This document shows positions 1-19,148 of a stretch of 19,148 nt of DNA, piece after piece; the first letter of the stretch is position 1; the number at the start of each line of letters is the position of its first letter. Origin of the DNA: a virus (taxonomy: Duplodnaviria; Heunggongvirae; Uroviricota; Caudoviricetes); the IMG/VR virus record IMGVR_UViG_2547132281_000015, positions 1 through 19,148 of that record; one strand, 5' to 3'. The notes under the pieces were generated by a model. The model worked only from the letters and a program-made list of their open reading frames with translations. It did no database searches and was not told where the DNA came from. The position numbers and the translations under genes were made by a program.

Positions 1-376
1 TGGTATGCCGAAAGGGATGCTGAAATTGAGAATGAAAAGCTGCGCCGGGAAGTTGAAGAACTGCGGCAGGCCAGCGAGACAGATCTCCAGCCAGGGACTA
101 TTGAGTACGAACGCCATCGACTTACGCGTGCGCAGGCCGACGCACAGGAGCTGAAAAATGCCAGAGACTCCGCTGAAGTGGTGGAAACCGCATTCTGTAC
201 TTTCGTGCTGTCGCGGATCGCAGGTGAAATTGCCAGTATTCTCGACGGGATCCCCCTGTCGGTGCAGCGGCGTTTTCCGGAACTGGAAAACCGACATGTT
301 GATTTCCTGAAACGGGATATCATCAAAGCCATGAACAAAGCAGCCGCGCTGGATGAACTGATACCGGGGTTGCTGA

Positions 377-402
<26 letters not shown>
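1..402 (+). CDS. nu1: Terminase small subunit Nu1, C-terminal fragment (5' end lies outside the window)
   Basis: Frame 1 reads ...EIENEKLRREVEELRQASE...VVETAFCTFVLSRIAGEIASILDGIPLSVQRRFPELENRHVDFLKRDIIKAMNKAAALDELIPGLLSEYIEQSG then TAA at 400-402, matching the lambda Nu1 C-terminus as I recall it. Overlaps the start of A by 26 nt as in lambda. Confidence 0.85.
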
Positions 403-4083
<3,681 letters not shown>

Positions 4084-4103
<20 letters not shown>

Positions 4104-5403
4104 TCTCCCGCATATTGCCAGCATGGCTTTTAATGAGCCGCTGATGCTTGAACCCGCCTATGCGCGGGTTTTCTTTTGTGCGCTTGCAGGCCAGCTTGGG
4201 ATCAGTCGCCTGACGGATGCAGTATCCGGCGATAGCCTGACTGCCGGAGAGGCACCCGCGGCGCTGGCGTTATCCGGTGATGATGACGGACCACGACAGG
4301 CCCGCAGTTATCAGGTCATGAACGGCATCGCCGTGCTGCCGGTGTCCGGTACGCTGGTCAGCCGGACGCGGGCGCTGCAGCCGTATTCGGGAATGACCGG
4401 TTACAACGGCATTATCGCTCGTCTGCAACAGGCTGCCAGCGATCCGATGGTGGACGGCATTCTGCTCGATATGGACACACCGGGCGGGATGGTGGCGGGA
4501 GCATTTGACTGTGCTGACATCATCGCCCGTGTGCGTGACATAAAGCCGGTATGGGCGCTGGCCAACGACATGAACTGCAGTGCAGGTCAGCTGCTTGCCA
4601 GCGCCGCCTCCCGGCGTCTGGTCACGCAGACCGCCCGGACAGGCTCCATCGGCGTCATGATGGCTCACAGTAATTACGGCGCTGCGCTGGAGAAACAGGG
4701 CGTGGAAATCACGCTGATTTACAGCGGCAGCCATAAGGTGGATGGCAACCCCTACAGCCATCTACCGGGTGATGTCCGGGAGACACTGCAGTCCCGGATG
4801 GATGCAACCCGCCGGATGTTTGCGCAGAAGGTGTCGGCATATACCGGCCTGTCCGTGCAGGCTGTGCTGGATACCGAGGCTGCAATGTACAGCGGTCAGG
4901 AGGCCATTGATGCCGGACTGGCTGATGAACTTGTCAACAGCACCGATGCGATCACCGTTATGCGTGATGCACTGGATGCACGTAAATCCCGTCTCTCAGG
5001 AGGGCGAATGACCAAAGAGACTCAATCAACAACTGTTTCAGCCACTGCTTCGCAGGCTGACGTTACTGACGTGGTGCAAGCGACGGAGGGCGAAAACGCC
5101 AGCGCGGCGCAGCCGGACGTGAACGCGCAGATCACCGCTGCGGTTGCGGCAGAAAACAGCCGCATTATGGGGATCCTCAACTGTGAGGAAGCTCACGGAC
5201 GCGAAGAACAGGCACGTGTGCTGGCCGAAACCCCCGGTATGACCGTGGAAACGGCCCGCCGCATTCTGGCAGCTGCACCACAGAGTGCACAGGCGCGCAG
5301 TGACACTGCGCTGGATCGTCTGATGCAGGGGGCACCGGCACCACTGGCTGCAGGTAACCCGGCATCTGATGCCGTTAACGATTTGCTGAACACACCAGTG
5401 TAA
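4084..5403 (+). CDS. C: Head maturation protease / minor capsid protein gpC (439 aa, S49 family), GTG start
   Basis: The ORF track extends to 3949, but the lambda-like start is the GTG at 4084 (VTAELRNLPHIASMAFNEPLMLEP...), giving 439 aa and a 20-nt overlap with the end of B, as in lambda. Confidence 0.85.
4798..5403 (+). CDS. nu3: Scaffolding protein Nu3, nested in-frame in the 3' third of C (201 aa)
   Basis: In-frame internal ATG at 4798 (MDATRRMFAQKVSAYTG...), same offset from the C stop as the lambda Nu3/C nested pair. Nested initiation is inferred by analogy, not proven by sequence. Confidence 0.7.
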   Translation: MDATRRMFAQKVSAYTGLSVQAVLDTEAAMYSGQEAIDAGLADELVNSTDAITVMRDALDARKSRLSGGRMTKETQSTTVSATASQADVTDVVQATEGENASAAQPDVNAQITAAVAAENSRIMGILNCEEAHGREEQARVLAETPGMTVETARRILAAAPQSAQARSDTALDRLMQGAPAPLAAGNPASDAVNDLLNTPV

Positions 5404-5412
5404 GGGATGTTT

Positions 5413-5745
5413 ATGACGAGCAAAGAAACCTTTACCCATTACCAGCCGCTGGGCAACAGTGACCCGGCACATACGGCAACCGCGCCCGGCGGATTGAGTG
5501 CGAAAGCGCCTGCAATGACCCCGCTGATGCTGGACACCTCCACCCGTAAGCTGGTTGCGTGGGATGGCACCACCGACGGTACTGCCGTTGGCATTCTGGC
5601 GGTTGATGCTGACCAGACCAGCACCACGCTGACGTTCTACAAGTCCGGCACGTTCCGTTATGAGGATGTGCTCTGGCCGGAGGCTGCCAGCGACGAGACG
5701 AAAAAACGGACCGCGTTTGCCGGAACGGCAATCAGCATCGTTTAA
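5413..5745 (+). CDS. D: Capsid decoration protein gpD (110 aa)
   Basis: [110 protein letters not shown], recognised as lambda gpD. Confidence 0.95.
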
Positions 5746-5762
5746 CCTTACCCTTCATCACT

Positions 5763-5787
5763 AAAGGCCGCCTGTGCGGCTTTTTTT
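5763..5787 (+). terminator. Hairpin plus T-run between D and E (partial intrinsic terminator or RNA-stability element)
   Basis: GCCGC (5767-5771), loop CTGT, GCGGC (5776-5780), extended by A/T pairs, followed by TTTTTTT at 5781-5787. Confidence 0.45.
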
Positions 5788-5800
5788 ACGGGATTTTTTT

Positions 5801-6826
5801 ATGTCGATGTACACAACCGCCCAGCTGCTGGCGGCAAATGAGCAGAAATTTAAGTTTGATCCGCTGTTTCTGCGTCTCTTTTTCCGTGAGAGCTATCCCT
5901 TCACCACGGAGAAAGTCTATCTCTCACAAATTCCGGGACTGGTAAACATGGCGCTGTACGTTTCGCCGATTGTTTCCGGTGAGGTTATCCGTTCCCGTGG
6001 CGGCTCCACCTCTGAATTTACGCCGGGATATGTCAAACCCAAGCATGAGGTGAATCCGCAGATGACCCTGCGTCGCCTGCCGGATGAAGATCCGCAGAAT
6101 CTGGCGGACCCGGCTTACCGCCGCCGTCGCATCATCATGCAGAACATGCGAGACGAAGAGCTGGCCATTGCTCAGGTCGAAGAGATGCAGGCAGTTTCTG
6201 CTGTGCTTAAGGGCAAATACACCATGACCGGTGAAGCCTTCGATCCGGTTGAGGTGGATATGGGCCGCAGTGCGGCGAACAACATCACACAGTCCGGCGG
6301 TACGGAGTGGAGCAAGCGTGACAAGTCCACGTATGACCCGACCGACGATATCGAAGCCTACGCGCTGAACGCCAGCGGTGTGGTGAATATCATCGTGTTT
6401 GATCCGAAAGGCTGGGCGCTGTTCCGTTCCTTCAAAGCCGTCAGGGAGAAGCTGGATACCCGTCGCGGCTCTAATTCCGAGCTGGAGACAGCGGTAAAAG
6501 ACCTGGGCGAAGCGGTGTCCTATAAGGGGATGTATGGCGATACGGCGATCGTCGTGTATTCCGGACAGTACGTGGAAAACGACGTCAAAAAGAACTTCCT
6601 GCCGGACAACACGATGGTGCTGGGGAACACTCAGGCACGCGGTCTGCGCACCTATGGCTGCATTCAGGATGCGGACGCACAGCGCGAAGGTATTAACGCC
6701 TCTGCCCGCTACCCGAAAAACTGGGTGACCACCGGCGATCCGGCGCGTGAGTTCACCATGATTCAGTCAGCACCGCTGATGCTGCTGGCTGACCCTGATG
6801 CGTTCGTGTCCGTACAACTGGCGTAA
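5801..6826 (+). CDS. E: Major capsid protein gpE (341 aa)
   Basis: ORF from the ATG at 5801 (MSMYTTAQLLAANEQKFKFDPLFLRLFFRESYPFTTEKVYLSQIPGLVNMALYVSP...), recognised as lambda gpE. The upstream in-frame extension from 5774 is rejected. Confidence 0.95.
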   Translation: MSMYTTAQLLAANEQKFKFDPLFLRLFFRESYPFTTEKVYLSQIPGLVNMALYVSPIVSGEVIRSRGGSTSEFTPGYVKPKHEVNPQMTLRRLPDEDPQNLADPAYRRRRIIMQNMRDEELAIAQVEEMQAVSAVLKGKYTMTGEAFDPVEVDMGRSAANNITQSGGTEWSKRDKSTYDPTDDIEAYALNASGVVNIIVFDPKGWALFRSFKAVREKLDTRRGSNSELETAVKDLGEAVSYKGMYGDTAIVVYSGQYVENDVKKNFLPDNTMVLGNTQARGLRTYGCIQDADAQREGINASARYPKNWVTTGDPAREFTMIQSAPLMLLADPDAFVSVQLA

Positions 6827-6867
6827 TCATGGCCCTTCGGGGCCATTTTCTCTCTGTGGAGGAGTCC

Positions 6868-7263
6868 ATGACGAAAGATGAACTGATTGCCCGTCTTCAG
6901 GTGCTGGGTGAGCAACTGAACCGTGATGTCAGCCTGACGGGGACGAAAGAAGAACTGGTGCTCCGTGTGGCAGAGCTGGAAGAGGAGCTTGATGACACGG
7001 ATGACGCTGCCGGTCAGGACACATCTGTCAGCCCGGAAAATGCGCTGACCGGACATGAAAATGAGGTGGTATCAGCGCAGCCGGATACCGTGATTGATAC
7101 GGCTGCTCTGGTCACGGTCGTGGCACTGGTGACGCTGCATACTGATGCACTTCACGCCACGCGGGATGAGCCTGTGGCATTTGTGCTGCCGGGAACGGCG
7201 TTCCGTGTCTCTGCCGGTGTGGCAGCTGAAATGACAGAGCGCGGCCTGGCCAGAATGCAATAA
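6868..7263 (+). CDS. FI: DNA-packaging protein FI (131 aa)
   Basis: MTKDELIARLQVLGEQLNRDVSLTGTKEELVLRVAELEEELDDTDD... with GGAGG 4 nt upstream of the ATG at 6868; matches lambda gpFI with a few substitutions relative to my recollection. Confidence 0.85.
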   Translation: MTKDELIARLQVLGEQLNRDVSLTGTKEELVLRVAELEEELDDTDDAAGQDTSVSPENALTGHENEVVSAQPDTVIDTAALVTVVALVTLHTDALHATRDEPVAFVLPGTAFRVSAGVAAEMTERGLARMQ

Positions 7264-7274
7264 CGGGAGGCGCT

Positions 7275-7628
7275 GTGGCTGATTTCGATAACCTGTTCGA
7301 TGCTGCCATTGCCCGCGCCGATGAAACGATACGCGGGTACATGGGAACGTCAGCCACCATGACATCCGGTGAGCAGTCCGGTGCTGTGATACGTGGTGTT
7401 TTTGATGACCCTGAAAATATCAGCTATGCCGGACAGGGCGTGCGCGTTGAAGGCTCCAGCCCGTCCCTGTTTGTCCGGACTGATGATGTGCGGCAGCTGC
7501 GGCGCGGCGACACGCTGACCATCGGTGAGGAAAACTTCTGGATAGACCGGATTTCGCCAGATGATGGCGGAAGCTGTCATCTCTGGCTTGGGCGGGGCGT
7601 ACCGCCTGCCGTTAACCGTCGCCGCTGA
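7275..7628 (+). CDS. FII: Head-tail connector protein FII (117 aa), GTG start
   Basis: 117-aa ORF (V/M)ADFDNLFDAAIARADETIRGYMGTSATMTSGEQSGAVIRGVFDDPENISYAGQGVRVEGSSPSLFVRTDDVRQLRRGDTLTIGEENFWIDRISPDDGGSCHLWLGRGVPPAVNRRR, recognised as lambda gpFII. Confidence 0.85.
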   Translation: MADFDNLFDAAIARADETIRGYMGTSATMTSGEQSGAVIRGVFDDPENISYAGQGVRVEGSSPSLFVRTDDVRQLRRGDTLTIGEENFWIDRISPDDGGSCHLWLGRGVPPAVNRRR

Positions 7629-8403
7629 AAGGGGGATGTATGGCCATAAAAGGTCTTGAGCAGGCCGTTGAAAACCTCAGCCGTATCAGCAGAACGGCGG
7701 TGCCCGGTGCCGCCGCAATGGCCATTAGTGCAGTTGTTACATAACTGAGTTTATGTAAGTCTTCATCATTCAGACGAGTGAGGGCTGGGACAGTAGCCAT
7801 GATGGCAGCCTCCTTGATCGGTGAAATACTTCCACCACCGGAAACGCCAATTTCGCTGGTGGTGAACTGAACGGGGTTGGCGTAACCGGTGATCAAGGAA
7901 ACCGGCGCATCTTTCGATGCCCCCGCCCAGCCCACCATAACTTTGATGTGAGCAAATGCGGACGATAAAAAAGACGCTGGCGCGTCATATATCGCCTTGA
8001 TCAATTCCAGGACGCCAATCCCGGCACCCGCTTTATAAGGTGCCTGAACAGTGTAACGTCCCGGAATGGCAGAATCAATGTGCTGGTGGTCCTTCACACT
8101 CAACAAAATCACGCCTGAATTTCCACAAAGGACTAAAGCACTCATGCGGGTAGTCTTTGCGAAGATAGATAACGCGCTGTGTTTCTGGTTCCCAACGAAT
8201 AACATGGACATAAAGCCCTCTTCCGTCACGAAACCAGCGGTTAAGTTCCCGCACAACTCGCCCCCCACAGTCAGGTAAAGTTCTCTGTGGTTACTTACAG
8301 CCAGGTGATTTGGTAATCTGCATTCATGCCGTAACAACAGGTGTTCAGCGACACTGACCACCAGCTGTTGCGACAAACGGTTATTTGCCGTTAAACTGTT
8401 CAT
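7612..8403 (-). CDS. Hypothetical early-right protein, 3' end disrupted at the rearrangement junction (native part about 7730-8403)
   Basis: 263-aa ORF whose ATG (8401-8403) overlaps the TGA of the upstream CII-like gene (ATGA coupling). Its last ~40 codons are read through the antisense of the lambda Z/FII sequence, so the true C-terminus is missing. No recognisable motif. Confidence 0.45.
   Translation of the reverse strand: MNSLTANNRLSQQLVVSVAEHLLLRHECRLPNHLAVSNHRELYLTVGGELCGNLTAGFVTEEGFMSMLFVGNQKHSALSIFAKTTRMSALVLCGNSGVILLSVKDHQHIDSAIPGRYTVQAPYKAGAGIGVLELIKAIYDAPASFLSSAFAHIKVMVGWAGASKDAPVSLITGYANPVQFTTSEIGVSGGGSISPIKEAAIMATVPALTRLNDEDLHKLSYVTTALMAIAAAPGTAVLLIRLRFSTACSRPFMAIHPPFSGDG
7640..7747 (+). 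pseudogene. Z: Tail gene Z remnant: first ~29 codons lambda-like, then divergence and stop after 35 codons
   Basis: MAIKGLEQAVENLSRISRTAVPGAAAMAI matches the lambda gpZ N-terminus (192 aa in lambda); the frame then reads SAVVTN and stops at TGA 7745-7747. No U, V, G, T, H... tail genes follow. Confidence 0.75.
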
Positions 8404-8963
8404 GCGTTAGTTTCTCCACAGACACAAAACGCCACGACGCCCGGAGCTGCACACTCGCGGGCGTCACTCTTTTCTGGAGCGCAAAAGATTTTGTAGACCA
8501 GTGCTGCATGCTCTTGGAGCTTCGAAATTGACAGATACAACTCATCATTAATTGCTGTCTGCTCGTGTGGCTCCACGACCCCATCTTCGATTGCCGAACG
8601 AATCTGCTTTGAGTAATTCCCGATCTGTTCGATGACTTCCAGCAGGCGCTGGTTTATATCGGCGTTCTCTACTTCCTCAATTTCAGGAAGCGATACGAAC
8701 ACCCCACCAGCAGACTGTGCGACAGCATCCGCAATGTAGTGAGTGCCAGCCGCGCGCTGTAAAACCATTGCCCATCCCAGCGGGAAAATCTGATCGCCAT
8801 CGGCACGAAGGCGGTTAAATAATGCGTTCTCTGTTACATCCAGCCAGTCAGCTGCTTCAGCGTAACCACCCGGCAACGCTGCGATAGTTTTTCTGACAGC
8901 TTTCACGTACCACTCAGGCTGTTTTTCTACTTTCCAGTGATACTTACCCACGGTTAGCCTCAT
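8400..8963 (-). CDS. CII-like early regulator (YdaT / phage CII family), tentative
   Basis: 187-aa ORF immediately downstream of the cro-like gene on the same strand, the position CII/YdaT occupies in Rac- and CP-933P-type prophages. Assignment rests on position, size and vague recollection of the family. Start uncertain (poor SD at 8963; alternative GTG four codons in). Confidence 0.5.
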   Translation of the reverse strand: MRLTVGKYHWKVEKQPEWYVKAVRKTIAALPGGYAEAADWLDVTENALFNRLRADGDQIFPLGWAMVLQRAAGTHYIADAVAQSAGGVFVSLPEIEEVENADINQRLLEVIEQIGNYSKQIRSAIEDGVVEPHEQTAINDELYLSISKLQEHAALVYKIFCAPEKSDARECAAPGVVAFCVCGETNA

Positions 8964-8994
8964 CGTTCTGTGGTTAAAAATTGAAGGTGTTCTG

Positions 8995-9195
8995 TTAATC
9001 TTTCGGATAGATATCCGGTCTTAAGTCAGATTTCGTAATTGCACCTGACGTGCATTGCTCAAGTTTTTTCGCCAGCACAAAACTGGCTTTTTTATAACCA
9101 TTGAAAACCAGCCGTAAGTAGCCAGGTGTTGAGCCAACTTTTCCGGCCAACTCGCCCTGCTGTTCTTTGGTTAAAGAGTCCCAATACGCTTTCAT
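8995..9195 (-). CDS. Cro-like HTH regulator (YdaS/Cro family, 66 aa)
   Basis: MKAYWDSLTKEQQGELAGKVGSTPGYLRLVFNGYKKASFVLAKKLEQCTSGAITKSDLRPDIYPKD; GGAGG about 10 nt upstream of the ATG at 9195; divergent from the cI-like gene. The longer 167-aa ORF to 9498 is rejected. Confidence 0.7.
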   Translation of the reverse strand: MKAYWDSLTKEQQGELAGKVGSTPGYLRLVFNGYKKASFVLAKKLEQCTSGAITKSDLRPDIYPKD

Positions 9196-9285
9196 ACAAT
9201 ATGTACCTCCGATATACATATTACATGATTGAAATGAACCTTCAAGATACTTGTACCTTATCGGTACAAAGGTTTTAATTTCGTT
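9196..9285. promoter_or_regulatory. Divergent cro/cI control region (pR-like and pRM-like promoters with operator-like palindromes)
   Basis: Operator-like 19-mers ATGTACCTCCGATATACAT (9201-9219) and TTGTACCTTATCGGTACAA (9251-9269, 7-bp perfect inverted arms). Candidate pRM: -35 TTGTAC 9251-9256, 17-nt spacer, -10 TTTAAT 9274-9279, ending 6 nt before the cI ATG (possibly leaderless). Candidate pR on the minus strand: -10 TAATAT at 9218-9223, -35 TTGAAG at 9240-9245. Confidence 0.5.
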
Positions 9286-9960
9286 ATGAAAACAATCCAT
9301 GACATCCGGCGGTCTAACGCCAGAAAACTGAGAGATGGTGTTGGCGGGAATTCTTCCTTTGCCACCATGATTGATCGCGAGCCAACCCAGACCAGCAGGT
9401 TTATGGGAGATGGTGCTACTAAAAATATCGGTGACAGCATGGCGCGGCACATCGAAAAATGTTTCGACCTGCCTGTCGGATGGCTTGATCAAGAACACCA
9501 GACCACGAACATCACAAAAAAACCTGATGTTTCAATCACTAACAAACAAATAACGTTAGTCCCTGTCATATCATGGGTACAGGCCGGAGCATGGAAAGAA
9601 GTTGGCTATTCTGAGGTTGATTTGAGCACAGCAGAAACTTACCCCTGCCCTGTACCCTGTGGCGAAATGACTTATATCTTGCGGGTGATTGGTGATTCAA
9701 TGATTGATGAGTACCGCCCTGGAGACATGATTTTTGTTGATCCCGAAGTCCCTGCCTGCCACGGTGACGACGTTATTGCATTGATGCACGATACAGGCGA
9801 AACCACCTTCAAGCGATTGATAGAAGATGGAACACAGCGTTATCTCAAAGCATTAAACCCAAACTGGCCTGAGCCTTACATTAAGATTAACGGTAATTGC
9901 TCTATAATTGGTACAGTGATTTTCTCGGGAAAACCAAGAAGATACACAATAAAGGCCTAA
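9286..9960 (+). CDS. cI-like prophage repressor with C-terminal LexA/S24 autopeptidase domain (224 aa)
   Basis: C-terminal half carries the S24 signature: candidate Ala-Gly cleavage site (VQAGAW), Ser nucleophile in GDSM, Lys in TFKRL. Divergent from the cro-like gene. Confidence 0.85.
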   Translation: MKTIHDIRRSNARKLRDGVGGNSSFATMIDREPTQTSRFMGDGATKNIGDSMARHIEKCFDLPVGWLDQEHQTTNITKKPDVSITNKQITLVPVISWVQAGAWKEVGYSEVDLSTAETYPCPVPCGEMTYILRVIGDSMIDEYRPGDMIFVDPEVPACHGDDVIALMHDTGETTFKRLIEDGTQRYLKALNPNWPEPYIKINGNCSIIGTVIFSGKPRRYTIKA

Positions 9961-9971
9961 TCAATATTTAT

Positions 9972-9996
9972 GAACCTGCTTCGGCAGGTTTTTTTA
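9972..9996 (+). terminator. Intrinsic terminator of the cI-like gene
   Basis: GAACCTGC (9972-9979), loop TTCG, GCAGGTT (9984-9990), then a run of T to 9996; begins 12 nt after the cI stop. Confidence 0.75.
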
Positions 9997-9999
9997 TAC

Positions 10000-10027
10000 T
10001 TGACAATGTACCCATGAGATACATAAT
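10000..10027 (+). promoter_or_regulatory. pL-like early-left promoter with embedded operator-like site
   Basis: -35 TTGACA (10000-10005), 16-nt spacer, -10 CATAAT (10022-10027). The spacer and -10 contain ATGTACCCATGAGATACAT (10006-10024), matching the 9201-9219 motif at 15 of 19 positions. Confidence 0.55.
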
Positions 10028-10445
10028 GTATCCAAAAGAAACATGAGGCAGGCAAAATTCAAACAAAATTTGGTTGTAACACGGCGTATGGCACATGCGT
10101 CGTTAGCGGTCTGGGGACGTTAAAGGGGACAATCCACTTCTTGCTCGGGCAAACAAACCAGGTAGCCGGAATGTGCAAGTCAATGATGATGCTGATAAGA
10201 CGCCTAACCAGCGTGGCGATCCGGTTTGACGCCTGGGAAGAGACCAGGGTGCAACGATGAGGGCATTTATAGAGCCGCGACAAAGTGTGGTGCCGTAACT
10301 GGCTAAGTGCTCTCAGCGTTGTGGTAATCCGCGAAATGGCGCGGCGGTAAGTATGGCGGGGTTACTCTTTCCCCGTTGAGGACACCGGATTGTCAGGTTG
10401 ACCATACGCCTGAGTGACAACCCCACCACAACAGCCACTGCTTTG

Positions 10446-10491
10446 GCGGTACCAGTTTGTACACTTGCTTCCGGCTGGTACCGCTCTTTTT
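10446..10491 (+). terminator. Intrinsic terminator (or nut/boxA-like element) at the end of the early-left leader
   Basis: Perfect 10-bp inverted repeat GCGGTACCAG (10446-10455) / CTGGTACCGC (10475-10484) followed by TCTTTTTAC. The CGCTCTTTTTACAA stretch also resembles boxA (CGCTCTTA / GCTCTTTAACAA). Confidence 0.55.
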
Positions 10492-10628
10492 ACAAAATAG
10501 AGAAGAGCATCACCGGACGACGGGCTCATAACCCAATCCATCCGGGCGGCTGCCACCGCAGGTGTTCTTCTCTGTTTTGTGGAGAAACCAACCGACCTTG
10601 CAGGGTCGATATGATGAGGAGCAGCAAA

Positions 10629-10991
10629 ATGGCTAGCGAACGCAGTACTGATGTGCAGGCATTTATCGGGGAGCTGGACGGCGGCGTATTTGAAACCAAA
10701 ATCGGCGCAGTTCTCAGTGAAGTCGCTTCCGGTGTGATGAACACGAAAACCAAAGGTAAGGTCTCACTCAACCTGGAAATCGAACCATTTGATGAGAACC
10801 GTGTGAAAATCAAACACAAACTCTCATATGTTCGCCCGACTAACCGCGGGAAAATTTCCGAAGAAGACACCACCGAAACGCTGATGTATGTCAATCGCGG
10901 TGGTCGCCTGACTATTCTGCAGGAAGACCAGGGACAATTACTGACTCTTGCCGGTGAACCTGACGGAAAACTACGCGCAGCAGGTCATTAA
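10629..10991 (+). CDS. yfdP: YfdP-like early-left protein (120 aa)
   Basis: ATG at 10629 preceded by GAGGAG (10616-10621) gives 120 aa, the size of E. coli K-12 CPS-53 YfdP, and it is followed by YfdQ/R/S/T-like genes in K-12 order. The upstream in-frame extension from 10398 is treated as leader. Confidence 0.6.
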   Translation: MASERSTDVQAFIGELDGGVFETKIGAVLSEVASGVMNTKTKGKVSLNLEIEPFDENRVKIKHKLSYVRPTNRGKISEEDTTETLMYVNRGGRLTILQEDQGQLLTLAGEPDGKLRAAGH

Positions 10992-11056
10992 TATCGTTCT
11001 TAATTAACTGATTATTTATCTCATCACTGAATATCTTTATATAGTGAGGACTTATT

Positions 11057-11881
11057 ATGTCTCAGAACTTAGACGCAACCGCAATTAATCAAATCCATGC
11101 CCTTATTTCTGCTCAGGGTGTTAATGAAATTATCAGTAATATTGGTGCCGATGCTGTGGCATTGCCTGAGAATTTCCGCATTCATGATCTGGAAAAATTT
11201 AATTTAAATCGCTTCCGTTTCCGTGGTGCGCTTTCCACTGCCAGCATCGATGACTTTACCCGTTATTCTAAAGATCTTGCAGATGAAGGCACCCGCTGCT
11301 TTATCGATGCTGATAATATGCGTGCCGTCAGTGTACTTAACCTGGGTACTATTGATGAACCAGGTCACGCAGATAACACCGCCACTCTCAAACTGAAAAA
11401 GACAGCACCGTTCTCTGCCCTGTTGTCTGTTAACGGCGAGCGTAACTCCCAGAAGTCACTGGCAGAATGGATTGAAGACTGGGCCGACTACCTTGTGGGC
11501 TTTGATGCTAATGGTGACGCTATTCAGGCAACAAAAGCGGCTGCGGCAGTCCGTAAAATCACGATTGAAGCAAACCAGACCGCTGATTTTGAAGATAATG
11601 ACTTCAGCGGCAAACGCTCCCTGATGGAGTCTGTCGAAGCGAAGACCAAAGACATTATGCCAGTGGCATTTGAATTTAAATGCGTTCCGTTTGAAGGTCT
11701 GAAAGAACGTCCGTTTAAATTACGCCTCAGCATTATCACTGGCGATCGTCCTGTACTGGTTCTGCGCATTATTCAGCTGGAGGCGGTGCAGGAAGAAATG
11801 GCTAACGAATTTCGTGATCTGCTTGTTGAGAAATTCAAGGACAGCAAAGTAGAAACCTTTATTGGTACTTTCACCGCCTGA
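11057..11881 (+). CDS. yfdQ: YfdQ-like protein (DUF2303 family, 274 aa)
   Basis: 274-aa ORF with GAGGA SD, same length as K-12 YfdQ and the same position in a yfdP-Q-R-S-T array. Family assignment from recollection. Confidence 0.65.
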
Positions 11882-11893
11882 TTTCATTACTGC

Positions 11894-11915
11894 AAATGCC
11901 CCTGCGGGGGCATTT
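11894..11915 (+). terminator. GC-rich hairpin between yfdQ-like and yfdR-like (possible attenuator)
   Basis: AAATGCCCC (11894-11902), loop TGCG, GGGGCATTT (11907-11915); no clean T-run afterwards. Confidence 0.35.
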
Positions 11916-12008
11916 ATGGAAACGTAATTTACTCAATAATCGCCGGATGGTGAGGGATTCTTTTTACCAGAATTCAGCGCGGTGCAGCGCATATACGTGG
12001 AGAACAAA

Positions 12009-12545
12009 ATGTCATTTATCAAAACTTTTTCTGGGAAGCATTTTTATTATGACAGGATAAATAAAGACGACATCGATATTAACGATATCGCGGTTTCCCT
12101 TTCAAATATCTGTCGCTTTGCCGGTCATCTTTCGCACTTCTACAGCGTCGCCCAACATGCGGTTCTTTGCAGCCAGCTGGTGCCGCAGGAATTTGCTTTT
12201 GAAGCGTTAATGCATGATGCAACAGAAGCGTATTGCCAGGACATTCCCGCACCACTGAAACGCCTTCTTCCTGACTATAAACGGATGGAAGAAAAAATAG
12301 ACGCCGTAATCCGTGAGAAATACGGGTTACCCCCGGTTATGAGTACACCCGTGAAATATGCCGATCTCATCATGCTGGCAACCGAACGCCGCGATCTCGG
12401 GCTTGATGATGGCTCTTTCTGGCCTGTACTGGAAGGCATCCCGGCAACAGAGATGTTCAACGTGATTCCACTGGCACCGGGCCATGCCTACGGGATGTTT
12501 ATGGAACGTTTTAACGATTTATCGGAGTTACGCAAATGCGCATGA
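12009..12545 (+). CDS. yfdR: HD-domain phosphohydrolase, YfdR-like 5'-deoxynucleotidase (178 aa)
   Basis: ATG at 12009 with GGAGA SD gives 178 aa (the K-12 YfdR length). HD signature: His in AGHLSHFYSVAQHAV and HD in LMHDATEAY. Stop overlaps the next gene by 10 nt. Confidence 0.75.
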   Translation: MSFIKTFSGKHFYYDRINKDDIDINDIAVSLSNICRFAGHLSHFYSVAQHAVLCSQLVPQEFAFEALMHDATEAYCQDIPAPLKRLLPDYKRMEEKIDAVIREKYGLPPVMSTPVKYADLIMLATERRDLGLDDGSFWPVLEGIPATEMFNVIPLAPGHAYGMFMERFNDLSELRKCA

Positions 12546-13712: not shown

Positions 13713-13747
13713 TGGGTATTAGCTCATATCAGAACTAATACCCATCA
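13710..13747. terminator. Strong hairpin at the convergence point of the early-left operon and the SIR2 gene (candidate bidirectional terminator)
   Basis: T-GATGGGTATTAG (13710-13722), 12-nt loop, CTAATACCCATC-A (13735-13747): 13-bp perfect stem overlapping the xis-like stop codon. No T-run on either side. Confidence 0.45.
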
Positions 13748-13914: not shown

Positions 13915-16900
13915 TCACACGCTGCGCCTTCGAGAATATTCATTTAATCGCTGATAACGAACATCTTGCTCCAGTTGTGGAGCAGCTTGAACAATTTGAA
14001 GCAAGCATTGCCCCAACTCTCGAGGCCCCCAGTGTTGTTCGGCAATCACGGCATTCAGCAGGGATAGAGCGTCCGCAGGATATCGGCTGCAAATATCTGA
14101 TTCTAGCAAAAGGCGAACGTCGTAGCTAAGGTGTTCGAGCGGTTGCAGCCAGTCCTGCACCACTGCCAAAGCCGCCGGAAATTCACCTCGGGCAGCAATC
14201 ACCATACGAGTCAACGATTCGGATATGCGTGGGGTGGCCAAGTTGCGGGACTTTGGCCAAACCTGTTGCCAAAATGGCTGGACACGATTTTTCCAATACT
14301 CCTCGCGCTGATCGCCCGCACCTTCAAGTGCCTGGTATAACGCCTGCGCGGCTACCTCCAGACCTTCTTGTGGAAGAGCACTAATTGCCGTTCGGAACTC
14401 CTCCACGGTATATCCCTCGGTAGGGCCCAGAGCTGCATAAGTCAGGAAAATAGCGAATTGCTGCCGGTGCTCGCCAAGATCAGAATAGTGATTGGCGCTC
14501 TCCAAAAAATCTGACTTGAAAGCTATCAGCAACGGTTCATACAGGCGTGGCGACCAGAGGAAGCCTTCCCACACAGCTTTTGCTTCGACGGGATTACTCC
14601 AAGCAAACAAGGGCAATAGATACTGTTCGGTCCAAGGTCGATCTACGCGAAAAAATGCGATCAGCCGCGACCCCAGCAACACCCGACCATGGCGGAATAG
14701 CTCTATCTGTACATTACACAATTTGGTGAAAAGTGTTTTCAATTCAACAGGAAGCAAATCATTGTCATTCGGGTTCTGTTTGAACCATAGGGTGATCAGT
14801 GATTGCGTGACATGCCCAATGGGATGATTGATCGCCGTAGAAACAGGATCATAGGTCTCAATTCCGTTTCGAATGGTGCTAGACTCTGGGCTTGTTTCTA
14901 TCATCAGAACCCGACGACAAAGGGCCAGTAGAATCTCCTCGTGGCAGAGGATGGTCTTCGAAGCCTCCTCCATCCACCAAGTGACAGCGTGGGAAATCTC
15001 CTGAAGTACTGCGTCAGGCATGTCAAGCACCAACGGTGCGGCGTACCGCCACGAACGCAAAATCATCCCTGGTTCAGCCCAAGTCTGCAGAGCTTCACGC
15101 CACCGACCAACAGGCCACACATCATCTTGTGATAGTTTACGTAACGCATACAGACTGTGAAAAAAGCGCGTACGGCAAACATCACTCCAAGTGTCCTCAT
15201 AGAAAGGCAGTCTTTCTGGCATAGGCTTTGCGAGCCATTGCACTAATTCCTGCCACTTACGGGGCGCAATGTCGACATCTATACTCTCCTCGAAGCCTGG
15301 ATCACCGGTTCCGCTCATCCAGTGAGAGAATTCATCACGCTCGTTGGTTGCCAGTTGCCATTTTGGGTATGCTGTGGATATTTCCGTCAAACGTGTAGCC
15401 GCAGACTCTCCCAAAACAAGGCCCGCTCCCCTGAGCTTCGCTAGACACAACCAGACGGAATGAGCCACCAAATAATGCCACCTGTCTGCTTCCAAATTAT
15501 CCTCGTACATCTCGCGCGGAGGCCCTGCCAAGATAGCAGTTTCCAGACGCTCTTGTGCAATTCCTGTCAGATGTCGTCCCTGCAAAACAAACAGTCTGAA
15601 TACCTCTCGCCGAGTATCCGTGGCCCACAACCACCATGAACCGTCCTCTAACAACCAATTAACCCACCGCTCAGGTGGTATGCAGTTGTCTTGGCTTGCG
15701 GCAAACAGTGCCAGACGTTTGAAGGTGGGATATGGCAACTCAAACCAATTCTGAGCAATGCGCGAGGCCTGATCGCTGTCTTTGGCTCGAACGGCTAACC
15801 ACGAATCCCGAAGTAATTCAATCAGGCTCACCCAATCGCGGAACCCCCGGTTCTGCCAGTGCGGAGTGATGGACGGCAAATCCCAATGCGAGCGGTCGTG
15901 ACGATCGTCGGACTCTCCCAACTCCCGCAACAAGTCCAGTGCATCACGCAACAACTGCTGAAAATCTTCCAACAGGTATGGCAAGGACGATTTCCATGAC
16001 TCGTCAGCAAGGTCGAACAGGGTTGAACGTACGTAATCAGCAGTCAGCACCAGCTCCCAATCCACCAATTGCTTGATTCGCAAGGGTTCATCAGTGCTGC
16101 TCGAATCGTCTTCACTATAGCGAAACGGCCGCCTCAACATAACCTTGGGAGAAAGCAACCCGCGTAACTCCAAGCGCAATGTAGTCGTCAAGCCTTCATT
16201 CTTTAAGCGGTTTTGCCAACGATACAAATCCAGGTTCTGCAATGGCGATTTCACACGACCACTAAGCAGAAGCCGCCATAAAGTAGACATAGGTGGACCA
16301 GGAATAGCCAGGGGGGAATGCAAGAGAATTTCATCTAACTCAGAAGTCTTACGCTCCCGCATCAGTGCTGCTAAGCGATCTAGTTCGCTCTCAATCAGAA
16401 ACATCCAACGGTCGTGTATTTGTCCGCCGCGTTCAGCAATCCATATGATCAACCTAGGGTCGCCCAGATAACGAACTAGCCAACGGGCTATATGGGACAT
16501 TACGTCATCCCATTTGCTAGCACTGACACATCCAGAAACCAGCGACATCTGCGGGGCCAGCTCATAGGGCGCTGGACGCTGAACCAGACTGAATCGGAGT
16601 TTCGGGTCAATTTCGACATGCGGAGATACACAAAAGCGTGGCAGATCGCTGTATTTAAATCGTTCGTCCGAGAAAGCTTTCAATAACCAATCCAGCGGCG
16701 GTGCAGGATTGAGTTCCGCAAAGCGTTTTGCTGGTAAACCTGATTTATCTGACAAGGCCCACAACATCCGACCAACGAAATCGTCCTGACGAGTGCTGTC
16801 CTGCGGGCGGGCCAGAGCATGTTTGACGACTATAGCCTCTTTGCCCTGTATACCATCTCGATAAGTATCTGCCCAAGCGTGCAACGTTTGATGCAGCACT

Positions 16901-17742
16901 GAATGATCAGTGGAGCCCGCCGGTACGGTGTAAAGGATAGGAGTGACCCCTTTGGCCTCCCACTCGATGGCTTTCCGGTGCTCCTGCCCCGGCTCACACT
17001 CCCCCAGTGCCCATACTTGTGGTGTGACTTCACCGAGCCTCCGATCTGCTGCAAGCGCATCCATCATGTAGCGCAGTACCGGGTCGTTGATGCTGTAGCC
17101 AACGAAGCAGACCACATAGTTACGAAATAACTCACTCACAAAGCGAGCTGCCCAACGCTCAGTGAGATAAGCCAAGCCAAAGTCACCGCTGGTAACAACC
17201 AGACGATTCAGGGCAGTATCATCCGCCTTTTCCGGTAACAGCCCATGCAGGTATACAAGTCCATCCCAGCGGCTGTTTTTTGGAATTGGCAGCATCGGCG
17301 CTACATAGGCCTGAAAAGCCTGGCCTGTACGTTTAGCTGCCACATGAAAGAGACGGTCAAAGTTGGTAGTGACCAATCGAAGGGCACCCTCGCGGCTACG
17401 GGCTAAACGTAACAGCGCCGCCTGAGTATCAATAGCGCCCCTACGACGGAGCTTTGGCTTAAGGGCTTTTTCCAACGCGCGTCGGACGGCTATACGCTGC
17501 CCTGGTAAGCGCCGTTCCAGCAAATCTAATGTGCCGTCAAATTGCCCACGCTCGAAAACCTCACGCTCAATTTCTGAAAGTGTTGTTCCGTTCCTCTGGT
17601 AAATTAGTTCTACCAACCCTTTGAAACCAGGTAAACCAGCAGGGTAGGAAATGCCTGCTCCACAGAAGAACACAACGCGCCCTTCCTCGTGCGCCTGCAA
17701 AAGCTCATCAGGAATATCAGGGCCGTTGGTAATGAATTGCAT
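13915..17742 (-). CDS. SIR2-like (sirtuin/NADase) domain protein, 1275 aa; candidate single-gene anti-phage defence protein (DSR-like)
   Basis: N-terminal ~300 aa carry SIR2-type motifs: FFCGAGISYP (GAG, res 28-30), VTTNFD (Asn127/Asp129), VYLHGLL (His166), VVTSGDFG, FVGYSINDP. GGAGG 9 nt upstream of the ATG at 17742. The remaining ~950 aa is W/L/R-rich with no P-loop. Confidence 0.8.
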   Translation of the reverse strand: MQFITNGPDIPDELLQAHEEGRVVFFCGAGISYPAGLPGFKGLVELIYQRNGTTLSEIEREVFERGQFDGTLDLLERRLPGQRIAVRRALEKALKPKLRRRGAIDTQAALLRLARSREGALRLVTTNFDRLFHVAAKRTGQAFQAYVAPMLPIPKNSRWDGLVYLHGLLPEKADDTALNRLVVTSGDFGLAYLTERWAARFVSELFRNYVVCFVGYSINDPVLRYMMDALAADRRLGEVTPQVWALGECEPGQEHRKAIEWEAKGVTPILYTVPAGSTDHSVLHQTLHAWADTYRDGIQGKEAIVVKHALARPQDSTRQDDFVGRMLWALSDKSGLPAKRFAELNPAPPLDWLLKAFSDERFKYSDLPRFCVSPHVEIDPKLRFSLVQRPAPYELAPQMSLVSGCVSASKWDDVMSHIARWLVRYLGDPRLIIWIAERGGQIHDRWMFLIESELDRLAALMRERKTSELDEILLHSPLAIPGPPMSTLWRLLLSGRVKSPLQNLDLYRWQNRLKNEGLTTTLRLELRGLLSPKVMLRRPFRYSEDDSSSTDEPLRIKQLVDWELVLTADYVRSTLFDLADESWKSSLPYLLEDFQQLLRDALDLLRELGESDDRHDRSHWDLPSITPHWQNRGFRDWVSLIELLRDSWLAVRAKDSDQASRIAQNWFELPYPTFKRLALFAASQDNCIPPERWVNWLLEDGSWWLWATDTRREVFRLFVLQGRHLTGIAQERLETAILAGPPREMYEDNLEADRWHYLVAHSVWLCLAKLRGAGLVLGESAATRLTEISTAYPKWQLATNERDEFSHWMSGTGDPGFEESIDVDIAPRKWQELVQWLAKPMPERLPFYEDTWSDVCRTRFFHSLYALRKLSQDDVWPVGRWREALQTWAEPGMILRSWRYAAPLVLDMPDAVLQEISHAVTWWMEEASKTILCHEEILLALCRRVLMIETSPESSTIRNGIETYDPVSTAINHPIGHVTQSLITLWFKQNPNDNDLLPVELKTLFTKLCNVQIELFRHGRVLLGSRLIAFFRVDRPWTEQYLLPLFAWSNPVEAKAVWEGFLWSPRLYEPLLIAFKSDFLESANHYSDLGEHRQQFAIFLTYAALGPTEGYTVEEFRTAISALPQEGLEVAAQALYQALEGAGDQREEYWKNRVQPFWQQVWPKSRNLATPRISESLTRMVIAARGEFPAALAVVQDWLQPLEHLSYDVRLLLESDICSRYPADALSLLNAVIAEQHWGPRELGQCLLQIVQAAPQLEQDVRYQRLNEYSRRRSV

Positions 17743-17924: not shown

Positions 17925-19148
17925 TCATTTCGAGCCTGAACGAGTACAAGTAACAATCGATTCAACTCTCTCCCACCATGCCTGGTAGGCTTTACGCTGT
18001 TCTTCTAGATAATCACTCTTGTCATAAACTTGCCATACACCTGGCAGTTTATGACCGAGCATTATTTCAGCAATATGAGGCGCAGTAAGATCAGAAAAGT
18101 TTGTTCGTGCTGTTCGTCTCAAATCATGAAGAGACCAGTGAGGAAATTGATACCCCAAACGCCGCCATGCGTACTGCATTAAATTGTAAGGCAGCGACTG
18201 CAATGATGTCCGACCAACTGGTTCCCTGCTTCCTTCCTTAGTAAAAAGCATATCGGAACCGTTGTTCATAGAGATAACGTATTTTATAAGCTCTTCAACC
18301 GGTTCAATAATGGGCCGCTTTAGCGGTTCGCCTGTTATATCCCCTGTCTTATGTCGTTCTGGTGGTACAGTCCATATTTTATTAATGAAATCAAAATCGT
18401 CCACCTTGGCAGTAATTAGCTCTGAACTACGGCAACCAAAATGCAGCAATAGTTTAATGAAGGCCCGGTATTTAGGAACCATTCGAGAACCATCGATCGC
18501 AGCATAAAGGATTTTAATTTCATCATGTGTCAGAAACCGTTTCTTCTGACCTTTACGGATATCCATATCTTTACCCGTGATATCCGACAGCGGGCGAGTT
18601 TCAATGAGCTTTCTCTTATACGCCCAGACATGGGCCTGCTTTGCGTTAATTAGCAATCGGTCTGCTATTGCTGGAGTCTTAGTGCTAAGAGGCTCCAGGA
18701 CTTCTAACCAATCATGCAATGTAGCTGCATCGTGAGGGATATTCCCGATTTTAGAGAACAGGTGCAGCTCAAACGAGCGGAGTATCTGTTCAGAACCTTT
18801 TTTATTTTTTACACAATATGCTTCATACCAAGCACGGATCACAGATTCTACCGTCATGGCTTCAGTAGCTTTACGTTTTTCTGCCAGCTTGACCAATCGT
18901 GGATTGCGGTTTGACTCGAGTTCACCACGAAGACGGATAACTTCTTCTCTGGCCTCTTTTAGTCCAGTTGCCGGGTAAGTTCCGATATCAAGACGCTCAC
19001 CTTTCCCCGCCCACTGATAACGATATTGGAACACTACGCGACCTTTCGGTGATACTCTAACAGACAGACCATCACGATCGGATTTAACCAAAACCTTATC
19101 ACGTTCCTTTCCAACGACTGAACGCAACCACGCATCAGACAGCGCCAT
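17925..19148 (-). CDS. Tyrosine recombinase / phage integrase, P4/CP4-57 (IntA/IntS) type, 407 aa
   Basis: Complete ORF whose ATG is the last three bases of the window (minus strand). C-terminal catalytic region HDLRRTARTNF...LGHKLPGVWQVYDKSDYLEEQRKAYQAWWERVE has the H-x-x-R and terminal Tyr pattern of P4-type integrases; N-terminus has the arm-binding (DUF4102-like) look. Confidence 0.9.
   Translation of the reverse strand: MALSDAWLRSVVGKERDKVLVKSDRDGLSVRVSPKGRVVFQYRYQWAGKGERLDIGTYPATGLKEAREEVIRLRGELESNRNPRLVKLAEKRKATEAMTVESVIRAWYEAYCVKNKKGSEQILRSFELHLFSKIGNIPHDAATLHDWLEVLEPLSTKTPAIADRLLINAKQAHVWAYKRKLIETRPLSDITGKDMDIRKGQKKRFLTHDEIKILYAAIDGSRMVPKYRAFIKLLLHFGCRSSELITAKVDDFDFINKIWTVPPERHKTGDITGEPLKRPIIEPVEELIKYVISMNNGSDMLFTKEGSREPVGRTSLQSLPYNLMQYAWRRLGYQFPHWSLHDLRRTARTNFSDLTAPHIAEIMLGHKLPGVWQVYDKSDYLEEQRKAYQAWWERVESIVTCTRSGSK

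What the first reader, a model, noticed from the sequence alone, without database searches (positions are those of the whole stretch)
7720..7760. Breakpoint inside tail gene Z: lambda head module fused in inverted orientation to an immunity/early region
The + strand encodes Nu1 through FII and then Z, which matches lambda gpZ for about 29 codons and then diverges and stops at codon 36. From about 7750 the minus strand carries the 5' two-thirds of an unrelated gene that is coupled to the CII-like gene, and its reading frame runs into the antisense of Z/FII. So both genes are truncated at one junction, and the head genes converge on the early-right operon instead of lying downstream of it. This indicates an inversion or deletion inside a prophage, a recombinant between two prophages, or a misassembly.
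Basis: seen in the sequence. Interest (0 to 1): 0.55.

Follow-up and report, generated by a model that had tools for sequence, protein, structure and literature searches.

The report
Inverted segment inside a defective prophage
A roughly 17-kb stretch of a lambda-like prophage in enterotoxigenic E. coli strain TW14425 has been flipped by a non-homologous break-and-join event that cuts tail gene Z and a small early gene, which should leave the prophage unable to grow; this is a real but ordinary kind of prophage decay.

Summary
The breakpoint is real and exact. The lambda-type head genes (Nu1 to FII plus the first 29 codons of Z) stop matching other genomes at window 7727. An SfV/e14-type early region on the minus strand starts matching at 7726. 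The two flanks share only the dinucleotide TA.

Both arms best match one prophage, which lies between yjjG and prfC in ETEC H10407 and in an O177:H21 strain. There all these genes run in one direction. The window is therefore that prophage with the segment from the early gene to Z inverted (about 17.4 kb).

I predicted the reciprocal junction from this model. The chimeric 88-aa ORF it would create exists exactly in public data (WNT87436.1). It sits 25 accession numbers from the ORF spanning the window's junction (WNT87461.1, E. coli TW14425). Both are listed with a longest contig of 4,943,650 bp. TW14425's genome was assembled from Nanopore reads at over 100x coverage, with each chromosome and plasmid as a single contig.

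This argues strongly against misassembly, deletion and a fusion of two prophages.

The gene cut on the right is not a large "ash" protein. It is a 77-codon ORF at the icd position of a P1-type isrK/C4 antisense-RNA module. Both RNAs remain intact.

The finding is ordinary biology and of low interest.

The parts
1..402 (+). Nu1-type small terminase subunit, C-terminal 134 codons (cut by the window start)
   Evidence: Mapped from the gene called on L002 (Pfam Phage_Nu1); the window is 99.99% identical to L002.
377..2302 (+). Large terminase subunit (gpA type, 641 aa)
   Evidence: GpA_ATPase and GpA_nuclease.
2299..7263 (+). Head genes: W (2299-2505), portal B (2502-4103), S49 protease C (4084-5403), decoration D (5413-5745), major capsid E (5801-6826), FI (6868-7263)
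   Evidence: Gene calls and Pfam families on L002 and L003, mapped to the window.
7275..7628 (+). FII head-tail joining protein, intact (117 aa)
   Evidence: Pfam Phage_attach, E 1.3e-19.
7640..7744 (+). Truncated tail gene Z: 29 native codons, 5 foreign codons, stop
   Evidence: Pfam Minor_tail_Z matches profile positions 1-31 of 190 only.
7726..7727 (.). Inversion junction J1: the TA dinucleotide shared by both parental sequences
   Evidence: The left alignment ends at 7727 and the right alignment starts at 7726. Parental sequences were compared.
7726..7800 (-). First 25 codons of a 77-codon ORF at the icd position. Its Shine-Dalgarno sequence AAGGAGG and ATG lie between the C4 target elements. 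After the junction the frame continues to 7612.
   Evidence: PHROG 4908/3960 match the ancestral 77-aa product.
7855..7942 (-). C4-type antisense RNA gene, intact
   Evidence: Rfam RF01695, 82.3 bits against a gathering score of 45. The predicted duplex with the downstream Shine-Dalgarno region is -52 kcal/mol.
7967..8043 (-). isrK-type Hfq-binding sRNA gene with its own terminator, intact. It overlaps a weak match to the C4 a1/b1 target (8056->8004).
   Evidence: Rfam RF01394, 64.2 bits against a gathering score of 50; RF03163, 21.4 bits, below threshold. Terminator at 7986->7973.
7612..8403 (-). The 263-aa fusion ORF as annotated in public records (WNT87461.1, 'hypothetical protein', E. coli TW14425). 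Probably not a real protein over most of its length.
   Evidence: The Pfam Phage_ASH match (residues 117-210, window 8055->7774) coincides with the RNA module.
8075..8254 (-). DUF4222 small gene (59 aa), in a different frame from the long ORF
   Evidence: Pfam DUF4222, E 1.1e-13; PHROG 1343.
8400..8951 (-). ymfL, CII-like regulator (SfV orf36)
   Evidence: Pfam Phage_CP76; PHROG 101, CII-like activator; annotation.
8995..9195 (-). ymfT, Cro-type repressor
   Evidence: Annotation in H1, H10407 and SfV; weak HTH_3/YdaS match.
9286..9960 (+). ymfK, CI-type LexA-like repressor
   Evidence: Pfam Peptidase_S24, E 1.5e-26; annotated cI in SfV.
13915..17742 (-). Dsr1 anti-phage defence gene carried by the prophage
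   Evidence: PADLOC Dsr1, full length, 2733 bits.
17925..19148 (-). Prophage integrase, next to yjjG in related genomes
   Evidence: Pfam Phage_integrase plus the arm-binding domain; genomic context.

Best explanation
The window shows one junction (J1) of a conservative inversion of about 17.4 kb inside a single lambdoid prophage. The prophage sits between yjjG and prfC and combines an SfV/e14-type early region with lambda-type head and tail genes.

Shown:
- In relatives the order is int, dsr1, cI, cro, cII-like, DUF4222, isrK, C4, icd-position ORF, orf38, O-like replication gene, further early genes, Q, lysis, Nu1 to FII, Z, tail genes, all in one direction.
- In the window's lineage the DNA between codon 25/26 of the icd-position ORF and codon 29/30 of Z has been turned round.
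- The predicted reciprocal junction (J2) exists, and its ORF is listed with the same longest-contig length as J1's ORF and 25 accession numbers away.

Inferred:
- The two breakpoints share only a palindromic TA, and there is no IS element or inverted repeat. The event was therefore illegitimate (non-homologous, at most microhomology-assisted) break and rejoining, not homologous or site-specific recombination.
- Promoter pR now reads through cro, the cII-like gene, isrK and C4 into the antisense of the head genes.
- The replication genes and Q have lost pR. The tail genes have lost the late promoter. Z and the small early ORF are destroyed.
- The prophage should therefore be locked and unable to grow lytically, while it keeps its repressor, integrase, the two regulatory RNAs and the Dsr1 defence gene.
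For: 1. Exact breakpoints with a 2-bp overlap.

2. Both arms have their best or near-best matches in one prophage. In ETEC H10407 the right arm is 99.9% identical at 5072386-5083808 (-) and the left arm 99.5% at 5094855-5102581 (+). The same holds in O177:H21. In both the genes are colinear.

3. The 2.4 kb beyond the window's left end on contig NJYM01000069.1 continues colinearly into the lysis cassette of that same prophage type at 99.86%.

4. The reciprocal junction was predicted from a base-conservative inversion model. One predicted chimeric ORF of 88 aa, made of the antisense of Z codons about 30-65 fused in frame to the last 52 codons of the early ORF, is present exactly in the 15-billion-protein collection as WNT87436.1 / WP_192807048.1.

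5. The J1 fusion ORF is WNT87461.1 from E. coli TW14425. Both ORFs are listed with a longest contig of 4,943,650 bp. The 24 accession numbers between them equal the 24 genes annotated between the two breakpoints in the uninverted relative.

6. TW14425 was sequenced with Nanopore R10.4 at over 100x and assembled with Flye, each chromosome and plasmid into a single contig (PMC10761095). J1 also occurs in GCA_002458215.1 and in the Logan assembly of SRR5185391.

7. There is no homology at the breakpoints. Only TA is shared, and the longest exact inverted match within +-200 bp is 8 nt, located elsewhere.
Against: - The DNA of J2 and the full interval between J1 and J2 could not be read directly. 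Co-occurrence in one genome therefore rests on the shared longest-contig length and the spacing of accession numbers.
- The three assemblies with J1 may all derive from one strain or clone, so the event could be recent or even a laboratory-stock change.
- The left arm is a little less similar to H10407 and O177:H21 (99.1-99.5%) than the right arm (99.9%). The direct ancestor is therefore not among the genomes compared.
- The functional consequences (no lytic growth) are inferred from gene order and were not tested.
- The enzymology of the break and rejoining cannot be told from the sequence.
Confidence: 0.9

Rival explanations
1. Assembly artefact: a chimeric contig joins head genes of one prophage to the early region of another.
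For: Lambdoid prophages share long repeats that often break or mis-join short-read assemblies. The junction is absent from 5,426 complete RefSeq genomes.
Against: The identical junction ORF is on record from three contigs produced by different pipelines: an NCBI draft, Logan, and a record of strain TW14425, which was assembled from Nanopore reads at over 100x. The reciprocal junction, predicted independently, also exists. The join is not at a repeat boundary; it lies inside unique sequence and shares 2 bp only.
Confidence: 0.02
2. A deletion fused two neighbouring, convergently oriented prophages, or a deletion occurred inside one prophage, removing everything between Z and the early gene.
For: Deletions are the commonest form of prophage decay. 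Other genomes carry deletion derivatives of this same prophage (L022 and L026).
Against: A deletion between colinear genes cannot place them head-on, and a deletion leaves no reciprocal product. Yet the exact reciprocal chimera exists, listed with the same longest-contig length and 25 accession numbers away. Both arms belong to the same prophage type.
Confidence: 0.02
3. A large chromosomal inversion arose between two different lambdoid prophages at distant sites, one supplying Z and the other the early region.
For: Chromosomal inversions between prophages are well known in E. coli O157 (from memory). E. coli genomes carry up to 7 copies of this head module.
Against: Only 24 protein accession numbers separate the two junction ORFs. 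This matches the 24 genes of the intra-prophage segment. The flank beyond Nu1 carries the 106-aa ORF and lysis cassette typical of the yjjG-prfC prophage, whereas other prophages with the same terminase carry other genes there.
Confidence: 0.03
4. A programmed, reversible inversion was made by a site-specific recombinase (Pin/Gin/Hin-type invertase, or the prophage integrase acting on secondary sites).
For: e14-type prophages can carry Pin invertase (from memory). The shared core TA is palindromic, so it is compatible with an inverted exchange.
Against: No inverted-repeat recombination sites exist: only 2 bp are shared and the nearest inverted match is 8 nt. No invertase gene lies in the window. 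The inverted allele is extremely rare, whereas a switch would be seen in both states across many genomes. The inversion also destroys two genes.
Confidence: 0.02

Closest known systems
Uninverted prophage at yjjG-prfC in ETEC H10407 (NC_017633, 5072386-5120000) and E. coli O177:H21 (NZ_CP016546)
   Same: Same integrase, dsr1, ymfK/ymfT/ymfL, isrK/C4 module, replication and Q genes, lysis cassette and lambda-type head genes. Identity is 99.1-99.9% over both arms of the window.
   Different: In those genomes all early-right and late genes run in one direction, and both Z and the small early ORF are intact. The window's lineage has the segment between them inverted. Those relatives are damaged in other ways: IS66 in the tail genes of both, IS3 in the KilA-N gene of H10407, and IS4 near yfdR in O177:H21.
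Shigella phage SfV early region (U82619: cI, cro, orf36, orf37 'immunity region', orf38, orf39 replication protein)
   Same: 99.1% DNA identity over window 7726-8403, with the same gene order and the same isrK and C4 RNA hits.
   Different: SfV is an intact phage. Its orf37 runs on for 52 more codons and is followed by orf38 and the replication gene. In the window those lie at the far end of the inverted segment.
Phage lambda head genes Nu1-FII and tail gene Z
   Same: About 98.6% DNA identity to lambda-type phages up to the breakpoint, with the same gene order.
   Different: Z stops after 29 native codons, and U, V and the remaining tail genes do not follow.
P1/P7 immI module (c4 antisense RNA, icd, ant) and the Gifsy-1 isrK-orf45-anrP locus (PMC4825925)
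   Same: A C4 RNA at Rfam gathering level. Target elements flank the Shine-Dalgarno sequence and start codon of the next ORF. Loop and target co-vary between the window and a P1-like phage. The start 'ATGGCTACT' is homologous to the start of P1-type icd. An isrK-type sRNA lies upstream, as in Gifsy-1.
   Different: The downstream ORF shares no detectable protein similarity with P1-type Icd. It is followed by replication genes rather than an antirepressor.
Illegitimate recombination in E. coli prophages (aberrant lambda excision in the Spi- assay; PMC3375238, PMC11372144)
   Same: Joins are made without homology or with a few bases of microhomology inside or next to a lambdoid prophage.
   Different: Those events are deletions or aberrant excisions scored in the laboratory. 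Here the product is a reciprocal inversion fixed in a natural isolate.
Cryptic lambdoid prophages of E. coli K-12 (e14, Rac, DLP12, Qin)
   Same: Lambdoid prophages that have lost lytic competence but keep a repressor, integrase and accessory genes (from memory).
   Different: Those are known mainly as deletion or IS-riddled remnants. This prophage probably keeps almost all its genes and is disabled by their orientation.

Membership tests
Conservative (reciprocal) DNA inversion | Both novel junctions exist | tested here: met
   J1 is in the window. The J2 chimeric ORF, predicted, was found exactly.
Conservative (reciprocal) DNA inversion | Both junctions lie in the same molecule, separated by the inverted segment | tested here: met
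   WNT87436.1 and WNT87461.1 (the latter named as E. coli TW14425) are both listed with a longest contig of 4,943,650 bp. The 24 accession numbers between them equal the 24 genes of the segment in O177:H21. This is indirect; the DNA between them was not read.
Conservative (reciprocal) DNA inversion | No bases lost or gained at the junctions | tested here: met
   The J2 ORF built under an exact-exchange model, with one TA kept at each junction, matches a database protein residue for residue across the join.
Homologous recombination between inverted repeats or IS copies | Inverted repeats of tens of bases or more, or an IS copy, at both breakpoints | tested here: not met
   Only TA is shared. 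The longest inverted exact match within +-200 bp is 8 nt and lies away from the breakpoints. No transposase ORF lies at the junction.
Site-specific invertase switch (Hin/Gin/Pin type) | Paired inverted recombination sites of about 26 bp and a nearby invertase gene | tested here: not met
   No such repeats exist. No resolvase or invertase domain was found in the 16 window ORFs scanned with Pfam. The rest of the genome was not examined.
Site-specific invertase switch (Hin/Gin/Pin type) | Both orientations occur in populations or related genomes | tested here: not met
   The inverted state is absent from 5,426 complete genomes. It is on record for 3 contigs only.
Lambda gpZ (Pfam Minor_tail_Z, PF06763) | Full-length protein of about 190 aa | tested here: not met
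   Only profile positions 1-31 of 190 are present, and the ORF stops after 34 aa. Intact relatives are 192 aa.
P1 immI-type c4 module | c4-type antisense RNA | tested here: met
   RF01695, 82.3 bits against a gathering score of 45.
P1 immI-type c4 module | Target elements complementary to c4 flanking the ribosome-binding site of the next ORF | tested here: met
   Duplex of -52 kcal/mol covering GAUCAAGGAGG...AUG...CCCAGCCC. Loop and target co-vary with a P1-like phage.
P1 immI-type c4 module | Downstream icd homologue followed by the antirepressor ant | tested here: not met
   The start-codon region is homologous, but there is no protein similarity to the P1-type Icd. The following genes are orf38 and an O-like replication gene.
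Ash protein family (Pfam PF10554) | Significant match to the family profile | tested here: met
   E 1.1e-18, residues 117-210 of the 263-aa ORF.
Ash protein family (Pfam PF10554) | The matched stretch is a translated protein-coding region | tested here: inconclusive
   The match (window 8055->7774) coincides with the isrK, C4 and target elements. The ORF's 5' part overlaps a DUF4222 gene in another frame. A P1-like phage keeps the RNAs but has no ORF that spans the isrK-like and C4 region. No expression data are available.

The most novel reading that the evidence does not exclude
The inversion is not neutral decay but a selected 'grounding' lesion. A single rearrangement uncouples pR from the replication genes and Q, and the late promoter from the tail genes. 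This makes the prophage non-inducible while it keeps every beneficial function: CI immunity, Dsr1 defence and the isrK/C4 RNAs. It also sets early and late transcription head-on, so that any escape transcription is silenced by antisense RNA.
Probability: 0.08. Interest if true: 0.35.

Novelty: new member of a known kind. Interest (0 to 1): 0.15.

Why it matters
The main value is practical.
- The odd gene order is real and not a misassembly, so annotation and prophage-prediction tools should call this element one defective prophage and not two fragments.
- It is a clean natural example of a reciprocal inversion made at a 2-bp microhomology in E. coli, which lacks classical end-joining.
- It shows how a nearly complete prophage can be disabled without losing genes, while keeping an anti-phage defence gene (Dsr1) in an ETEC strain.
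- It does not reveal a new mechanism or system.

Tried and rejected
- An exact scan for J1 found nothing in the species-representative genomes of genome contigs, in viral contigs or in JGI metagenomes.
- A search for J1 and for a synthetic J2 in 5,426 complete RefSeq E. coli genomes found no spanning match. The TW14425 genome is evidently not in that collection.
- The exact look-up of the 34-aa truncated Z and of the 166-aa version of the fusion ORF, from the start codon annotated in the RefSeq records, found nothing on record.
- Nine other predicted J2 products and nine other start variants of the J1 ORF are not in the collection.
- Look-ups of the terminase and of Dsr1, meant to reach a long contig carrying J1, returned only ordinary prophages because both proteins are too common.
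- A paper search for the assembly, run and protein accessions found nothing.
- I considered site-specific and homologous recombination and rejected both for lack of repeats.
- I considered that the right-hand gene is a true 278-aa Ash protein. I rejected this as unlikely for three reasons: it overlaps the RNA genes, its 5' part overlaps DUF4222 in another frame, and no such ORF exists in a P1-like phage.

Full report
**Observation**

The + strand of the window carries a lambda-type packaging and head module:
- Nu1, cut by the window start
- A at 377-2302
- W, B, C, D and E
- FI at 6868-7263
- FII at 7275-7628

An ORF starts at 7640 that is identical to the Z-type tail gene of many E. coli prophages for 29 codons. 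It then diverges and stops after 34 residues. Pfam Minor_tail_Z covers only profile positions 1-31 of 190.

Alignments of the left flank to complete E. coli genomes (100% identity) and to lambda-type phages (about 98.6%) all end at window 7727. Alignments of the right flank begin at 7726. They are 100% identical to the ash/DUF4222/ymfL region of many prophages and 99.1% identical to phage SfV orf36-orf37. The flanks therefore overlap by the dinucleotide TA at 7726-7727.

**Where the two arms come from**

Both arms have their best or near-best matches inside one prophage in two genomes.
- In ETEC H10407 the right arm (7726-19148) is 99.9% identical to 5072386-5083808 on the minus strand. The left arm (1-7727) is 99.5% identical to 5094855-5102581 on the plus strand.
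- E. coli O177:H21 shows the same picture.

In these genomes the prophage lies between yjjG and prfC. Its order is int, dsr1, a few accessory genes, ymfK (cI), ymfT (cro), ymfL (cII-like), DUF4222, 'ash', orf38, an O-like replication gene, PerC, dam, rusA, Q, lysis genes, Nu1 to FII, Z, U and the tail genes. All early-right and late genes point the same way.

To turn that arrangement into the window's, one must invert the DNA between a point in the 'ash' ORF and a point in Z. That segment is about 17.4 kb in O177:H21 and 18.8 kb in H10407, which has an extra IS3. On contig NJYM01000069.1, which carries the same junction, the 2.4 kb beyond the window's left end continues colinearly into the lysis cassette of this same prophage type at 99.86%.

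**Test of the inversion model**

An inversion, unlike a deletion or a misjoin, predicts a second junction (J2). There the reverse complement of the 3' part of the early ORF meets the 3' part of Z.

I built J2 from the H10407 sequence, assuming a base-conservative exchange that leaves one TA at each junction. I derived ten possible ORFs across it, using four Z variants. One of them is present residue for residue in the 15-billion-protein collection, as WNT87436.1 / WP_192807048.1 from E. coli. It is an 88-aa chimera of the antisense of Z codons about 30-65 fused in frame to the last 52 codons of the early ORF. Such a protein can only exist if J2 exists with exactly the predicted breakpoints.

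The ORF that spans J1 in the window (263 aa) is WNT87461.1, 'hypothetical protein QMY53_01359 [Escherichia coli TW14425]'. Both ORFs are listed with a longest contig of 4,943,650 bp. The 24 accession numbers between them equal the 24 genes annotated between the two breakpoints in the uninverted O177:H21 prophage.

TW14425 is an ETEC strain. Its genome was assembled with Flye from Nanopore R10.4 reads at over 100x, each chromosome and plasmid into a single contig (PMC10761095). J1 is also on record in the draft GCA_002458215.1 and in the Logan assembly of SRR5185391.

These results leave little room for misassembly, for a deletion, or for a fusion or large inversion between two separate prophages. 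One caveat remains. The link between the two junctions therefore rests on the shared longest-contig length and the accession spacing.

**How it happened**

The parental sequences share only TA at the crossover. Within +-200 bp the longest exact inverted match is 8 nt and lies elsewhere. No IS element or recombinase site is present.

The inverted allele is absent from 5,426 complete genomes, from the species-representative genomes of genome contigs, from viral contigs and from metagenomes.

This is the signature of a rare illegitimate (non-homologous, at most microhomology-assisted) double break and rejoining. It belongs to the class of event studied in E. coli with aberrant lambda excision (PMC3375238, PMC11372144). 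It is not a programmed switch. Which enzymes did it cannot be told from the sequence.

**What was cut on the right-hand side**

The minus-strand ORF 8403->7612 is annotated in public records as an Ash-family protein or as SfV orf37 'immunity region'. Rfam, however, places two RNA genes on the same strand inside it, both at gathering level:
- an isrK-type sRNA at 8043->7967, with its own terminator (also seen)
- a C4-type antisense RNA at 7942->7855

The Pfam Ash match (window 8055->7774) coincides almost exactly with these RNAs and their targets. The 5' part of the long ORF overlaps a DUF4222 gene (8254->8075) in another frame, and that gene has its own Pfam and PHROG support.

Downstream of C4 lie GAUCAAGGAGG and an ATG at 7800. 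C4 can pair with the Shine-Dalgarno sequence and with codons 5-7 of this ORF, at -52 kcal/mol. An alignment with a P1-like phage shows three things:
- the RNA module is conserved
- the C4 loop and its two targets co-vary (GAUCAAGG/CCUUGAUC against GUCUAAGG/CCUUGGAC)
- the start 'ATGGCTACT' is the start of the annotated icd gene

That phage has no ORF spanning the isrK-like and C4 region.

The most likely real gene is therefore a 77-codon ORF at the icd position of a P1 immI-like / Gifsy-1 isrK-like module (PMC4825925). Its protein is unrelated to P1-type Icd, and it is followed by replication genes rather than an antirepressor. The inversion cuts it after codon 25 and leaves both RNAs and their targets intact.

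**Consequences (inferred, not tested)**

- Transcription from pR now runs through cro, ymfL, isrK and C4 into the antisense of Z', FII and the head genes.
- The replication genes and Q sit at the far end of the inverted segment without pR.
- The tail genes downstream of J2 have lost the late promoter.
- Z and the small early ORF are destroyed.

The prophage should be unable to replicate or to make tailed particles. It keeps the CI-type repressor, the integrase and the Dsr1 defence gene.

Relatives of this prophage are often damaged in other ways: by IS66, IS3 and IS4 insertions and by large internal deletions that keep dsr1 (L022 and L026). The inversion is one more route of decay.

**Verdict**

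The event is a strain- or lineage-specific, non-homologous, reciprocal inversion within one prophage. It is a new instance of a well-known kind of event and of low general interest.

The side observation may be of more use to annotators: the 'Ash' protein family match lies on top of conserved RNA genes.

Noticed in passing
window 7774-8056, minus strand: The Pfam Phage_ASH (PF10554) match coincides almost exactly with the isrK sRNA, the C4 antisense RNA and their target elements. The family, or at least this branch of it (SfV orf37, 'ash family protein' in RefSeq), may largely be a translation of conserved RNA genes and not a protein.
   Followed up: partly
window 13915-17742, minus strand: A full-length Dsr1 (SIR2-type) anti-phage defence gene lies between the integrase and the early-left genes. 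Deletion derivatives of the prophage in other genomes (L022, L026) retain it.
   Followed up: partly
protein P0005 (268 aa, on a 50,021-bp NCBI contig): Another genome carries a different truncation of the same small early ORF. Its sequence is native up to '...TRLNDEDL' (codon 15 of the 77-codon ORF) and then unrelated. This is a second, independent break only ten codons from the one in the window.
   Followed up: no
L004 18444-21059; L005 34377-35992 and 18049-19277; L001 16913-18121: The uninverted relatives are also damaged. IS66/ISCro1 lies in the tape-measure gene of O177:H21 and in gpU of H10407. IS3 lies in the KilA-N gene of H10407. IS4/ISVsa5 lies near yfdR in O177:H21. The prophage at yjjG-prfC seems to be defective in most genomes examined.
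   Followed up: no
L018 and L025, 19940-21091: In some relatives the isrK/C4 module is followed by a Rha-type (antirepressor-like) domain fused in the same long ORF (383 aa), in place of the 77-codon ORF. The RNA module seems to be a cassette placed in front of different payload genes.
   Followed up: no
window 9961-10628: About 670 bp without a convincing gene lie between the CI-type repressor gene and yfdP. Rfam found nothing here at gathering level. SfV annotates two terminators and a small orf33 downstream of its cI.
   Followed up: no
window 13518-13712, plus strand: A 64-aa ORF with a weak HTH_17/MerR-type helix-turn-helix match lies at the end of the early-left operon next to dsr1. It may be the excisionase.
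   Followed up: no
window 12536-13518, plus strand: Two consecutive DUF551 ORFs (120 and 206 aa) are intact here. The RefSeq records for H10407 and O177:H21 annotate the 206-aa one as incomplete pseudogene fragments.
   Followed up: no
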